From Paraspadella gotoi (Eukaryota > Animalia > Chaetognatha): a DNA stretch of 64,000 bases. Positions 42,379-57,813 of this stretch are shown here, piece after piece. The stretch lies in NCBI GenBank assembly GCA_051294375.1, contig CM119266.1, positions 4,586,573 to 4,650,572 on the forward strand. The letters are read 5' to 3'. Position 1 is the first letter of the stretch. Each line of letters starts with the position of its first letter. The notes below the pieces were generated by a model, which saw nothing but the letters and a program-made list of their open reading frames with translations, was not told the origin of the DNA and did no database searches. A program made the translations under genes and the position numbers.

Positions 42379-45300
42379 ATGTCGTCGTCTCTCGATCGAG
42401 ATTCGTCGTCGTCGTCGTCGTCGTCGTCGTCGTCGTCGTCGTCATTCGCTTACAAATCGAAGTCTCAAAATTTCGCGTCTTCTGCTTTCGTGAATCCAAT
42501 TTTCGAGACGAACGAGACTCCGCCCGTCGAAGTCGAGCCACGCCCACTGTTCTCGAGCCGCGCCCTCTCGCGAGCGACGTCCGACTCGATCCGAATTCTG
42601 CGTCGAGAGAAAAACAAAAGAACTAGCGAAAACGACGACGACGCCGTCAACGGATTGCCGTTCGCCACGTGGCAACGCGGACGACGCTTCGACGAGGACG
42701 AACCGCCATCTGTTGAGACTGGAAAGAAAATTAAGAAGAAGAGCTTGAGAGAGAGCATTACAATGACGGTGAGAGAGAGAGAGAGAGAGAGAGAGAGAGA
42801 GAGAGAGAGAGAGAGAGAGAGAGAGAGAGAGAGAGAGAGAGAGAGAGAGAGGAAAAGCGAAGGCTAGTAAGAGAGGGGTGGGAGAAGGAGAGAGAGAGAG
42901 AAACTGAAAGAGAAGGAGAGATATTGATATTGATATTGAAAATAGGGAGTAGAAGCTTTAGGCCATTTTTCAAAACTACCTCAAAAGGCCACTTTATCAA
43001 AAATAGAATTTAACACGATCCTGTTTACTTTAACAATTAATTATACTTCAAACTACTTTTTGTACTTCAATTTTACTTCAAGCTACTCTATCAAGATTAC
43101 ACCGTCACATTACTTCAATTGTTAGTTATACTATCTGCTATATTACTTTCAAGCAGAGCATGTAGAACGCGATCCGAAAGGAAACCGAACACTGTGGAAG
43201 CGGCCCGATTTTTAAGAACCCGAAACCGGGGAGCGATAGGAAAAATTGAGAATTAAAGGATATTTTGAACACCCGGGGAAGCGTTATAATAACCCTTGGC
43301 GTGTTCGCTTCCGCGTCATTGTTTTTATTGGTTAGAAATGAAAGGTATTTAATGTATTAAAATCTTGGAACCCCCTGCTCTTTCTTGATTTTTTCTTTTA
43401 AAATTTTGTTATCAATATTTATTTCAACATTTAGAAATTGTTTGCCTCCTTAATTTTTTATTCACTTTTTATTCTCTTCTTTTATTTTTTGTTCTCTTTA
43501 TTCTCTTTTCCTCTCTTGGTCGCAGAATCTTTGAAAAAAATTACATATTTATTTTTTTTATTATTCTATTTTAATTATATTCAAATTAAAATCTGAGCTA
43601 AAAAAAGATTTTTTCTATTTGAAAAAAACATGTAATTTAAGGTTAAATTAAAATTTAAAATTAAACTTTTTTTTTATAAAACTAAATTATTATTTTCTTA
43701 TATGTTTTATTATTTTTTCTTTAAATTTAAGCTCTCTTCTTTTTAAATCATAACATTTTTTCATGTTACAAACAAGTTTAACCCAAACAGGATTGATCTG
43801 TTTTATTGGCAATATTGCATAATTATTTATGCTTATACATACTTAAATCTCTAACACACACTCTCTCTCTATCTTCTTTTTTTCCCCTCTTGCACTAAAC
43901 ACAAAAGCAAATAAAAAAAATATATAAAATAAAACTAAATCAAAATATTAATAAAAAAAGTTTGAGCAAAACAATGCCGGTCCTGCCACGATCTCATTAG
44001 TGTTAATTATGATTAATTAAGCTGAAAAAAATAAACATTATAAATTACAGATATAATTAATTTAACAATAATAACATCTCGAACATTATGGGAGCTCAAA
44101 ATTGATTCTGAACAAAACGACAACGACGCATGAATACAATGACGAAAACGACGACGAAGTCTTTGTACTTTGTGAGCCGTAGTACAGTATGTGGTACAAT
44201 AAAGAATGACCTGTTTTACCCAACTCTTCGTTATTGGCTGACCTTTTTCTCAGCCAATGTAAATACTAGTTGTTGTTGTTATTATTTTTTATCATTTTTA
44301 CTTTTACTGTTTTTGATAATACCCAGGTATTTTTTTATCACAAAAACACGCCTCAAATTTTTCTATAAATTTTTGTTTTGAGTCACCCAAACATTATAAA
44401 AAATATTCTCAATTAATTAATTTAGAGGAAGAAGCAAAAAATTTTGAATTTGTACAACGATTTAAATTGAATAGGTTGACATGTTTCGGCTTGTTTACTT
44501 CAAAGCCTTTCTCAGCATATGACATTCCAATATAAATTTGTGCAAAAGAAGAGTGTGTAGGAAGAGACGAGAAGAGGGAGAGAGAAAGAAAGAGAAAAGG
44601 TAAAAGTTTTTCCCAACAAAGTGGTGAGACCAAGAATACGTGGTCAGATGTGAGGACAGGTCTGAAGAGTAAGGCCCAGATTAGTGAGTTGTGAAAGAAG
44701 TGAAACTTGTATAGAGAGAGAGAGAGTGAGCAGAAGAACAAAAACAAAACAATGGATAAAGTAAATGATAAAGATACAAGTTTTGCAATGTACAACCAAA
44801 GATTAAAGGAGCTTTAATTTAATTAAATAATTAATGATTGGCAACCACGACAATGATTTAATACCGACATGACAATGATTGATGCTTAATTTATATTGAT
44901 TGATTGATTGAATATTTTGATTATTGATTGAATAATAATTAATTGATCAGTTCTGGCATTGCTTAGCTTCAAACTTGTTTGTTTTTTGTCTTTTCATTAC
45001 TTGACAAAAGAAATGACGGACCCTATGATGATTATTGATGACACACGCAGGATAGCCGACCATCATGATTATTGACTATGATTGATTGATCAAATAAATA
45101 AATTCATATCAGGGCCTTAATTTTAGGTTTCTTTTTTGTTTGTCAGGTCACTTGACCAGGACAAAGCAAACAACGACGTTGGAGATGACAACTGATAACA
45201 CTGACATTGTTTAATTGATTGATTAATTGATTGATTAATTAAATTAATTATTAGTTCTTTTATTACTAATTTATCTTGAAAATTAAAATTTCATTAATTA

Positions 45301-55700: not shown

Positions 55701-57813
55701 GTTCATCCAATCCCATTGGTTCAGAGGGGGAACACACCATCCCAAGCATTGTGTTCCATCCTTACAACTTCCTTCTGCGTTGGCAAAGCGAGACCGTCCT
55801 AGGGTAACCGCTTCAGTGACAGGAGTCGGAAGCTCCTAAAGGCAACTATTCTTTACAGAGATGCTCCATCCCGATGGGCATCTCTCTCTCTCTCTCTCTC
55901 TCTCTCTCTCTCTCTCCAATTAATCAGTTATCTCCAATTTAATGAGTTCTGAGTAAACTGTGTATACTATTGCTTATATTTAGAGATAGATATGACAATA
56001 TAAATGCTATTTTAATTTCTTTTATTTCGAGAATTAACTTATTAACTCTATCTTGACAACCACTATTACAAATAACAGTACACCATTAAATAAAATACAC
56101 AAACAAATAAATCTATCTTAGGTTTATTCGAAGAAAGTTCTAGCGACGTGACGATAACGGTGACGGCGACTTTCTCCATGACTCCGATCTACAACAACTT
56201 TAGCCCGACGATCGAAAATTGGCTCAACGAGACATTTAACCTCGGAAAGCCTTATCATGTCAATCAAACGCTGCCAGTTGGTTCTTGTTTAAAGGTGGGA
56301 GAGAGAGAGAGAAGAGAGGAAGAGAGAGAGAGAGAGAGAGAGAGAGAGAGAGAGAGAGGAGAGAGAGAGAGAGAGAGAGAGAGAGAGAGAGAGAGAGAGA
56401 GAAAGAGAGAGAGAAAGAAAGAGAGAAAGAAAAGAGAGAAAGAAAGAGAAGAAAGAAAAGAGAGAAAGAAAGAGGAGAGAAAGAAAGAGAGAAAGAAAGA
56501 GAGAAAGAAAGAAAGAAAGAAACTGTCCTCTTTTTTTATTTTCCTAGAAACCGAGTCCAGCTTTCGTCTACAGCGGAAAACCTTTCACCATCGTCATTAT
56601 TCTCTACATTGCCACACTCGGTCTTACTATATTTCAAGCCTACGGACTTAGACTACAAAGAACTATATCGGCTTACTTCTATCAGGAGCGAGAGGTTTGT
56701 ATGTATTATATAGTCAATTTCTAGTACGATTCCATGAAGTTGATACAACAAAACAAAAATTAATCATTGTACATTTCATTCAAACGAGCTGTCTGGCTTG
56801 CTGTCTTTGGACCATGTATTAAGGCCTCCATTGGATTATTCAATATTCATCTCACAATAACAAGTTTTTAACCTCGTATTGTGTAGATGTTCCCCCTATT
56901 TACAGAAGAAATCACTAACATCCCCTCCATTTTATTACATAAATGCAATAGATAAATAGATTTAAAATTTGTTTAAAATATACTTAACTTTAAATAATGT
57001 TTACAATATTTAGTTTATTAAAGTAAAACAAGTAATTTTGCAATTTTCATACAAAATAATAGAAAATTATTTGTGGCAAAGCTTTGCAGTCCGCAAGCTT
57101 TTCATCAAGACTCTCAGAGCTCAGTTAATAAATTCAATAATTATTTGTCTTTTTAATTAATAAAGTTTTATAATAGTTTTTAATTATATTATGAATAGTA
57201 TCATTCTAGGAATATCTAGCTAATGGAATCAAATGGAATCGAATGGAATTTAATAAACTAAATATTATAAACATTATATAAAGTTAAGTATATTTTAAAC
57301 AAATTTTAAATGGTATTTCGATCGCTTCAGGTCAGTTTGTTTTTTTAATTTATTCATTCCAGTGGGAACGCTCGGAATTCTTCATCAAAAAGACTCTCCT
57401 CGAGCGAATGTCCCGCATCAAGACGATGGTTAGCGCCAAGATTGACGAATGCGGCGTCGTCGTCGGTAGGGATGAACTCGACGAATTCCAAAGCTTTAAC
57501 CTTCGTTGGCCGAGTTTGGCCAACTTCCTCGTCAACCTTAATCTCCTCAAGCGGAGGTGCTTCTTCTGCGGCGAAGAGTGGAGGAACACGGTAAGAGAGG
57601 CTCGGGTGTATTTATTTGTTGATAAATCTTATTTATTAATTTAATATTTCAATTAAAATACAGAGATTTTTCCGCGAATTCGAATCGGCGACGGACGAGG
57701 ACGACAGGGTCATTCCCAAGACGATTTGTCGTGATTGTCGGTTGGAATTCACAAAAGCCGATCGGGGAAGCATCGGCATATTTTTAAGAGATTCTAGAAT
57801 GCCGCCATCCTGA
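52726..57813 (+). CDS. DC-STAMP-domain module 2; 9 exons; no start codon of its own, likely the C-terminal half of a fused gene
   Basis: IRCVAALLVPGIFSTRGR, GPVQQMKNN, SMAC, DHDNRYIT, VLPLRKKER, TDYGL, QAYGLRLQRTISAYFYQEREWER and CFFC...ICRDC. Exons: 52726-53137, 53725-53896, 54354-54596, 54692-54939, 55400-55646, 56122-56294, 56548-56694, 57363-57590, 57664-57813. Confidence 0.88.
55670..55882 (+). mobile_element. ~220-bp structured dispersed repeat, copy 1
   Basis: Clearly homologous to the reverse complement of 60261-60485. Ends in the hairpin gatgctccatcccgatgggcatc followed by (CT)n. Confidence 0.75.

What the first reader, a model, noticed from the sequence alone, without database searches (positions are those of the whole stretch)
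42379..57813. Apparent single-chain double-DCST (DC-STAMP x2) gene
Seen: module 2 starts ~390 bp after the module 1 stop, at a phase-2 acceptor (tccag|A, 52726). It has no in-frame ATG before its first TM, and I found no usable ATG exon in the gap. Module 1's last exon has a phase-2 donor just before its stop (AAAAG|gttaaa, 52314/52315). Joining them gives an open frame ...EVQLRPKR-SVRFAVRDSSPSRS...CYFIAGLVF, i.e. 21 exons and ~1,460 aa. The junction also creates an RVxF-like PP1-docking motif (KRSVRF). Known: DCST1/DCST2, SPE-42/SPE-49 and sneaky are separate sperm proteins needed for fertilisation, and DCST1/2 act as an interdependent pair. Inference: this lineage tethers two diverged DCST units in one polypeptide through a cytosolic linker. 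A short module-1-only isoform is also possible (stop 52333, AATAAA at 52521). I know of no described example.
Basis: partly seen in the sequence, partly recalled or inferred. Interest (0 to 1): 0.85.

Follow-up and report, generated by a model that had tools for sequence, protein, structure and literature searches.

The report
Cell-fusion protein pair in one chain
In what is likely an arrow worm, one spliced transcript joins two complete, diverged copies of a DC-STAMP-family membrane protein into a single 1,460-residue reading frame; the copies likely arose by internal duplication of a little-known invertebrate subfamily rather than from the sperm genes DCST1 and DCST2, and they are predicted to pair with each other as a built-in dimer.

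Summary
The join is real. One 4,517-nt contig from a spliced (RNA-type) run crosses 52314 to 52726 with no mismatches, and no contig reads on into the module-1 stop. The 21-exon model gives an open 1,460-aa frame with two six-helix DC_STAMP modules, 28% identical. The modules are each other's closest relatives (100/98) inside a short-stalk, four-cysteine-finger clade that includes an Owenia protein (99/97). They lack the six-cysteine ectodomain and eight-cysteine RING of SPE-42/DCST1/2, and AU tests reject DCST1 or DCST2 orthology. A single-module relative is predicted to homodimerise (0.40 against best control 0.00), and both modules keep that surface hydrophobic. So this is likely a self-contained pseudo-heterodimer of a cell-fusion family known to work in pairs. 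Sperm role, tissue and PP1 docking are untested. The only other double seen is a probable bird gene-prediction merge. My searches for doubles were shallow. Earlier scan notes cover other DC-STAMP variants, not a double.

The parts
42379..42768 (+). Exon 1 (aa 1-130), Ser-rich low-complexity cytosolic N-terminus; ATG at 42379
46070..46265 (+). Exon 2, module 1 TM1 (aa 167-185)
46613..46724 (+). Exon 3, TM1-TM2 outer loop; least certain exon
   Evidence: best of the frame-restoring candidates (donor 9.0, acceptor 0.5); fits contig arithmetic
47386..47575 (+). Exon 4, module 1 TM2, TM3 and start of stalk
47955..48072 (+). Exon 5, module 1 stalk helix (predicted dimer coiled coil)
48679..48920 (+). 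Exon 6, module 1 short stalk tip and return strand
49381..49501 (+). Exon 7, module 1 TM4
49570..49666 (+). Exon 8, start of DC_STAMP domain 1
   Evidence: PF07782 E 4e-05, 24.0 bits (cut-off 25)
49780..49921 (+). Exon 9, module 1 TM5
   Evidence: PF07782 E 0.0012, 19.2 bits; relative P0005 76% over 38 aa
50147..50375 (+). Exon 10, module 1 second outer loop
51259..51421 (+). Exon 11, module 1 TM6
   Evidence: PF07782 E 1.2e-09, 38.8 bits
51952..52314 (+). Exon 12, module 1 cytosolic tail with four-Cys finger (CxxC at 727 and 745) and first half of the linker
   Evidence: contig piece, 0 mismatches
52315..52725 (+). Junction intron (411 nt, GT..AG, phase 2); removes the in-frame stop ending at 52333; holds a dispersed repeat (about 52339-52471) and a CT run
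   Evidence: joint
52726..53137 (+). Exon 13, second half of linker (RVxF-like KRSVRF spans the joint), module 2 TM1 (aa 832-850) and outer loop
53725..53896 (+). Exon 14, module 2 TM2 and TM3; followed by a GC-AG intron
   Evidence: joints
54354..54596 (+). Exon 15, module 2 stalk helix and tip
54692..54939 (+). Exon 16, module 2 return strand and TM4
55400..55646 (+). Exon 17, start of DC_STAMP domain 2 and TM5
   Evidence: PF07782 E 7.5e-18, 65.5 bits; relatives P0001, P0002, P0055 54-62%
56122..56294 (+). Exon 18, module 2 second outer loop
56548..56694 (+). Exon 19, module 2 TM6
   Evidence: PF07782 E 1.5e-06, 28.6 bits
57363..57590 (+). Exon 20, module 2 cytosolic tail, first CxxC (1401)
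57664..57813 (+). Exon 21, second CxxC (1433) and stop

Best explanation
One spliced gene encodes a 1,460-residue chain with two complete DC-STAMP-family modules, which likely arose by internal duplication of a short-stalk invertebrate subfamily gene and are predicted to fold against each other as a tethered pseudo-heterodimer that would act in cell adhesion or fusion. Shown: the spliced junction, the open frame, and a DC_STAMP domain in each half. Inferred from hydropathy and family topology: six helices per module, so both ends of each module face the cytosol and the 184-residue linker needs no membrane crossing. Inferred from trees: the modules are sisters, so the pair was made inside this lineage and is not DCST1 joined to DCST2. 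Predicted from a stand-in: the two stalk helices form a parallel coiled coil braced by TM5 and the second-loop strands, giving one short spike with two unlike hydrophobic tips. Inferred from family knowledge: the spike engages a facing membrane or organises a fusion complex, and the tether fixes 1:1 stoichiometry and prevents either module pairing with itself. Cell type is unknown; sperm is one candidate, somatic fusion another.
For:: one contig across the junction, no contig into the module-1 stop; two DC_STAMP modules, 28% identical over 604 columns (E 4e-68), each matching the family profile along its length; six hydrophobic peaks per module (weakest 0.85 and 1.43), none in the linker (max 0.53); modules are sisters (97; 97; 100/98) inside the short-stalk clade (95; 97; 99/97). 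AU rejects separating them (p 0.005); relative P0019 (residues 192-688, two copies) scores 0.40 against best of 3 controls 0.00; runs agree in at least 75% of contacts; partner pLDDT at least 64; the mark was reached by 21 of 30 solved pairs and 0 of 23 single chains in microbes, and in eukaryotes by 17 of 29 pairs (animals 7 of 16) and 0 of 30 single chains. No family structure was found in the PDB by sequence or Foldseek, so a remembered family complex is unlikely; stalk positions at that interface are hydrophobic in 41% (module 1) and 48% (module 2) of 29 positions, against 20% and 7% of 15 others. Literature: DCST1/2 interact and are interdependent (PMC8989947, passages); DCST1/2 heterodimer and DCST1 homodimer are predicted (PMC11052572, passages); fragments from other samples match one module each (76% module 1; 54-62% module 2), so both modules are old and conserved.
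Against: RNA support is one contig in one run whose RNA status is a tool's guess; a contig across two genes does not by itself prove one full-length transcript, and no protein was observed. The dimer test used a stand-in about 27% identical to the modules, not the modules; on eukaryotes only 1 of 7 proteins with no older solved relative reached the mark, so calibration for this case is thin. Both modules are long branches, and the AU tests used LG+G4, which the tool warns can join long branches; the comparison groups were named after a first tree was seen. The DCST1 reference was a poor bird prediction plus one unnamed protein. No function is known for the sister clade. Vertebrate DC-STAMP and OC-STAMP were absent from the tree. 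The fusion was not shown in a second species (searches found nothing).
Confidence: 0.66

Rival explanations
1. The chain is made as one protein but the modules do not pair with each other; each pairs with a module of another chain or another paralogue, building larger arrays, or the linker is cut and the halves act separately.
For: The linker is long (184 aa between helices, 84 after the zinc finger) and low in complexity, so it allows either pairing. The stand-in is predicted as a homodimer, so each module may still self-pair. Mouse DCST1/2 appear processed or degraded (PMC8989947, passages).
Against: A tether raises the local concentration of the partner module greatly (general knowledge). 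The modules have diverged to 28% while both keep the interface hydrophobic, as expected for a heterodimer. The basic site at the joint is on the cytosolic side, out of reach of furin-type proteases (inferred topology).
Confidence: 0.2
2. The gene is the lineage's sperm DCST1 and DCST2 fused into one chain, much eroded.
For: DCST1/2 are an obligate pair in mouse and fish (PMC8989947). Fast evolution could blur orthology and both modules are long branches. No genome was available to look for separate DCST1/2 genes.
Against: AU tests reject module 1 or 2 with the DCST2 group (p 0.0005, 0.0003), either with bird DCST1 (p 0.0001, 3e-08), and both inside DCST1/2 (p 0.0007). Both modules share with the Owenia-type clade the loss of the cysteine-rich tip and a four-Cys tail. 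A weaker form remains open: a non-orthologous pair that has taken over the sperm role.
Confidence: 0.07
3. Two neighbouring genes in an operon, resolved mainly by polyadenylation and leader trans-splicing at 52726, with the joined form as a by-product.
For: Arrow worms trans-splice about half their genes and 18% lie in operons (PMC12460157, passages); the organism label comes from an unchecked scan note. Module 1 has its own stop and an AATAAA in the gap. Contigs can drop variants, and 56 loose ends were not shown.
Against: The only contig on the exons runs through the joint unbroken, and none covers the module-1 stop. A trans-spliced module 2 would start at Met901 and lose TM1. No ATG exon lies in the gap. 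The AATAAA is chance-level. The joint keeps the frame.
Confidence: 0.07

Closest known systems
Owenia fusiformis CAH1793251.1 (P0016) and unnamed relatives P0003, P0004, P0007, P0008, P0009, P0011, P0019: a short-stalk, four-Cys-tail DC-STAMP-family clade with no described function
   Same: Best matches of both modules (about 24-29% identity); sister group in all three trees; no cysteine-rich stalk tip; two CxxC in the tail; often an enlarged TM1-TM2 loop.
   Different: All are single-module proteins. Here two diverged copies sit in one chain.
DCST1/DCST2 (SPE-49/Sneaky and SPE-42), the core of the SPARK sperm complex
   Same: DC_STAMP domain, six-helix layout with cytosolic ends, stalk between TM3 and TM4, action as a pair of diverged paralogues (PMC3053230, PMC8989947, PMC13192892; passages).
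   Different: Separate genes (facing each other in mouse; PMC8055269, part 1 read). Their TM3-to-DC_STAMP stretch is 246-267 aa with 7-9 Cys, against 174 aa with 4 Cys and 167 aa with 5 Cys here. Eight-Cys RING against four Cys. Different clade. Sperm expression unknown here.
Vertebrate DC-STAMP and OC-STAMP (osteoclast and giant-cell fusion)
   Same: Same Pfam family; the non-DCST1/2 branch of the family in the published tree (PMC8989947, passage); somatic cell fusion role.
   Different: Separate genes. Orthology could not be tested, since no vertebrate DC-STAMP or OC-STAMP sequence came up in the searches.
Barn swallow hypothetical protein DUI87_29620 (RMB93884.1, P0046, 1,416 aa)
   Same: Two DC_STAMP domains in one predicted frame.
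   Different: DCST2-like half then DCST1-like half; a one-member cluster; the first half lacks TM4 and the RING and the second has a garbled TM6 region, so it is likely an automatic merge of two neighbouring genes. No RNA support was checked.

Membership tests
DC-STAMP family (Pfam PF07782) | DC_STAMP domain covering TM5 and TM6 | tested here: met
   5 of 21 exons hit PF07782; exon 11 (38.8 bits) in module 1 and exons 17 and 19 (65.5, 28.6) in module 2 pass the cut-off of 25; exons 8 and 9 (24.0, 19.2) fall below it as fragments.
DC-STAMP family (Pfam PF07782) | Six membrane helices with both termini cytosolic | tested here: met
   six Kyte-Doolittle peaks per module at aligned places (module 2 TM3 weak, 0.85); the model of relative P0019 has matching helices. 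Orientation is inferred from SPE-42 (PMC3053230).
DCST1/DCST2 (SPE-42, SPE-49, Sneaky) | Large TM3-TM4 ectodomain with six conserved cysteines 9-13 residues apart | tested here: not met
   174 aa with 4 Cys and 167 aa with 5 Cys; the cysteine-rich tip is missing in the alignment. References: 246-267 aa, 7-9 Cys.
DCST1/DCST2 (SPE-42, SPE-49, Sneaky) | C-terminal RING of eight cysteines (six invariant in vertebrates) | tested here: not met
   two CxxC per module only (727/745 and 1401/1433), enough for one zinc.
DCST1/DCST2 (SPE-42, SPE-49, Sneaky) | Each unit groups with DCST1 or DCST2 in a tree | tested here: not met
   5 of 5 constrained placements rejected (p-AU at most 0.0007), 27 rows, LG+G4; long-branch caveat; weak DCST1 reference.
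DCST1/DCST2 (SPE-42, SPE-49, Sneaky) | Testis or sperm expression and need for fertilisation | not testable with these tools
   Run X1 has no library or tissue record; no DC-STAMP term in 3 supplement files of the arrow-worm genome paper.
Vertebrate DC-STAMP/OC-STAMP orthologous group | Grouping with DC-STAMP or OC-STAMP in a tree | not tested
   No named vertebrate DC-STAMP or OC-STAMP among the 20 hits looked up.
Short-stalk four-Cys clade (Owenia type) | Grouping with the clade and sharing its stalk and tail losses | tested here: met
   support 95; 97; 99/97; stalk 176-183 aa in 4 of 5 measured members, 245 aa with 2 Cys in the fifth.
PP1-interacting proteins (RVxF) | RVxF motif in an exposed cytosolic region, conserved and binding PP1 | tested here: inconclusive
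   Motif present at 787-792; 2.6% of linker shuffles give one; 3 of 7 clade relatives have a similar motif in the N-terminal tail against 0 of 9 measurable others, with per-protein chance 0.04-0.29. The consensus is recalled; binding is untested.

The most novel reading that the evidence does not exclude
Arrow worms have built a natural single-chain DC-STAMP dimer: the first member of this fusion-protein family in which the obligate pair is one polypeptide. It carries a minimal stalk without the cysteine-rich tip, is possibly gated by PP1 through a motif made at the joint, and may stand in for DCST1/2 in their unusual fertilisation, where sperm reach the egg through a canal of accessory cells. 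It would be a ready template for one-gene fusion assays and a first structure of the family.
Probability: 0.25. Interest if true: 0.85.

Novelty: new variant of a known kind. Interest (0 to 1): 0.6.

Why it matters
How DC-STAMP-family proteins drive cell fusion is open: no family structure was found in the PDB, and a 2026 preprint proposes that the DCST1/2 dimer's stalk tip is the membrane-inserting part of the sperm fusion machine (PMC13192892, passages and section 8). A natural chain holding both halves argues that the dimer is the working unit beyond the sperm genes, shows that the ends can be tethered, and offers a one-gene, fixed-stoichiometry target for expression, structure and fusion tests. 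It also exposes an undescribed invertebrate subfamily that lacks the cysteine-rich tip and half the RING, which tests what the minimal machine needs. Tandem fusion of dimer halves is common in membrane proteins in general, which limits the surprise.

Tried and rejected
No whole genome was held, so separate DCST1/2 genes could not be sought. Three of the four runs laid nothing (X2, X3, X5); their 0.05 word share is no evidence of habitat. A candidate exon at 55725-55803 was rejected: it lies in a high-copy repeat and the contig and frame join 55646 to 56122. Word-based protein searches with exons 12 and 17 found nothing. The search for long double proteins covered only 1,674-4,780 aa and so missed the 1,200-1,670 range that matters. 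Two metagenome scans found no relative. ESM Atlas gave only hits under 0.9. PDB searches gave generic coiled coils or nothing; the wider structural search was not run. Rfam found nothing in the window. The careful mixture-model tree did not finish; its quick version agreed. Trees: 37 rows (hits of 440 aa or more, near-duplicates dropped, last 760 aa kept) and 27 rows (10 more fragments or near-duplicates dropped). Intron positions did not date the duplication: 0 exact matches between modules and three near pairs. DNA likeness between modules is slight (best 62 nt at 76%), so no recent conversion. The real modules could not be folded or docked, because they span many exons; a relative stood in. 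Paper searches with no hit: 'two DC-STAMP domains', DCST1+DCST2+read-through, DC-STAMP+chaetognath; none of the 15 papers listed contains 'DC-STAMP domain'. The library lacks most subscription papers, and bioRxiv supplements (such as the SPARK taxon tables) were not seen.
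Full report
OBSERVATION. A search for runs found six, one of which (X1, 'RNA?') holds 0.38 of the sampled words of 50000-55000; exons make up 0.37 of that stretch. Laid on 51935-55880, X1 gave one contig of 4,517 nt at depth 42.8 with no mismatch or gap on six exon pieces. 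It skips exactly the 411-nt junction intron (GT..AG) and the next four introns, one of them GC-AG. The other three runs laid nothing. Depth in the bin that holds the module-1 stop is 37, against 36.96 expected from the spliced contig alone, so no read-through ending is assembled. Contigs hide rare forms, and this is one run.

GENE MODEL. Twenty-one exons give 4,383 nt and 1,460 aa with no internal stop. The contig has 1,958 nt upstream of exon 12 against 2,000 modelled, which places its end at 42421 inside a TCG repeat, a natural break point; downstream it has 874 nt, or 698 coding plus 176 UTR. Exon 3 was needed to restore the frame and has a weak acceptor. The gap holds no usable start exon (5 ATGs, all closing within 7 codons), about 130 nt of it is a repeat with nine other matches in the window, and its AATAAA is at chance level.

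ANATOMY. PF07782 hits 5 of 21 exons, three in module 1 and two in module 2. The halves align over 604 columns at 28% identity, E 4e-68, and a profile of 31 relatives matches each half along its length. Each module has six hydrophobic peaks and the linker none. SPE-42 is described as six-pass with both ends cytosolic (PMC3053230, passages), so the join is topologically free. The linker is 184 aa from helix to helix.

RELATIVES. A profile of the conserved exons found 51 proteins at E 0.001 or better among 1.84 billion representatives, a thin slice of the family. The best full-length matches to both modules are one Owenia fusiformis protein and unnamed proteins. These share with both modules a TM3-TM4 stalk without the cysteine-rich tip and a tail with two CxxC only. 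SPE-42 and its homologues are defined by six ectodomain cysteines and an eight-cysteine RING (PMC3053230, passages), and neither feature is met. In three trees the modules are sisters (97; 97; 100/98) within that clade (95; 97; 99/97). AU tests reject all five placements with DCST1 or DCST2 (p at most 0.0007) and reject splitting the modules (p 0.005). Caveats: both modules are long branches, the tests used LG+G4, groups were named after a first tree, the DCST1 reference is poor, and vertebrate DC-STAMP and OC-STAMP were missing. Short fragments from other samples match one module each: P0005 76% over 38 aa to module 1, and P0001, P0002, P0055 54-62% to module 2. So both modules are old, but whether they are joined in those animals is unknown. 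Of 69 fetched proteins, one other is double: a barn swallow prediction that looks like a merge of DCST2 and DCST1.

ORGANISM. Not established by my calls. An unchecked scan note on the same genome calls it very likely an arrow worm; a sister group holding an annelid protein fits a spiralian. Arrow worms trans-splice about half their genes and use operons (PMC12460157, passages), which is why the operon rival was weighed. They are hermaphrodites whose sperm reach the egg through a canal of accessory cells (PMC13330366, passages), so a run without a tissue record says nothing of sex or tissue.

MECHANISM. DCST1 and DCST2 interact and depend on each other (PMC8989947, passages); a mace-shaped heterodimer and a DCST1 homodimer are predicted (PMC11052572, passages). 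The real modules could not be folded here. A single-module relative, P0019, folds with a long stalk helix (mean pLDDT 64.3, pTM 0.53) and is predicted to homodimerise: 0.40 against best control 0.00, runs agreeing in at least 75% of contacts, partner pLDDT at least 64; the mark was reached by 21 of 30 solved pairs and 0 of 23 single chains in microbes, 17 of 29 and 0 of 30 in eukaryotes, but by only 1 of 7 eukaryotic pairs with no older solved relative. The interface is the stalk coiled coil, TM5 and the second-loop strands. In both modules the stalk positions at that interface are more hydrophobic than the others (41% and 48% of 29, against 20% and 7% of 15). The simplest history is a self-pairing ancestor, tandem duplication, divergence, and capture of the second copy by a splice from a donor just before the first stop. 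The product would be one short spike with two unlike hydrophobic tips and fixed stoichiometry. A role in adhesion or fusion is inferred from the family alone. The RVxF-like motif at the joint is real as sequence (2.6% of linker shuffles give one), weakly echoed in relatives (3 of 7 against 0 of 9) and untested.

NOVELTY. I found no paper on a two-module DC-STAMP protein (related listings), no family structure, and no earlier scan note on a double. These searches are incomplete, and the long-protein search missed the relevant size range. Papers seen: PMC13192892 (passages, section 8), PMC8830517, PMC11052572, PMC3053230, PMC8989947, PMC12460157 (passages; three supplement files searched), PMC13330366 (passages), PMC8055269 (part 1 of 4).

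VERDICT. A real, transcribed single-frame double DC-STAMP gene; a new variant of a known family, from an undescribed subfamily and not the sperm DCST1/2 pair. Odds: one frame as the main product about 0.9; internal duplication outside DCST1/2 about 0.85; intramolecular pairing about 0.7; sperm role about 0.3. Interest 0.6.

Noticed in passing
window 12681-14066 (-): A 461-codon intronless frame whose last ~190 residues look like eIF4E (recalled motifs, not run against Pfam), behind a long low-complexity, repeat-rich N-terminus; possibly a retrocopy. The exact sequence is not in the protein collection.
   Followed up: partly
window 53897-54353: Intron 14 is a GC-AG intron, supported by the RNA contig joint.
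   Followed up: yes
window 52339-52471, 53420-53545 and 55660-55830: Intronic repeats with very high summed contig depth in run X1 (bins up to about 39,000, 1,600 and 14,000), so abundant transcribed or high-copy elements. The first has nine other matches in the window; the third resembles a stretch near 60150-60490.
   Followed up: partly
introns 7/16, 9/17 and 10/18 of the gene: Three intron pairs lie within a few bases of each other in the aligned modules but none coincides exactly: intron sliding or parallel gain.
   Followed up: partly
P0046 (RMB93884.1): A barn swallow gene prediction joins DCST2-like and DCST1-like halves head to tail, which suggests the two genes are co-oriented neighbours in that bird, unlike mouse.
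   Followed up: partly
P0003, P0004, P0007, P0008, P0009, P0011, P0016, P0019: An apparently undescribed DC-STAMP-family clade without the cysteine-rich stalk tip and with a four-Cys tail; one member is from Owenia fusiformis.
   Followed up: partly
window 29888-33048 (+): Exons resembling an alpha carbonic anhydrase (recalled motif).
   Followed up: no
window 19585-23200 (+): Multi-exon gene for a long coiled-coil protein.
   Followed up: no
window 50800-51250: Tandem array of a roughly 64-nt pyrimidine-rich unit just upstream of exon 11, seen directly in the sequence.
   Followed up: no
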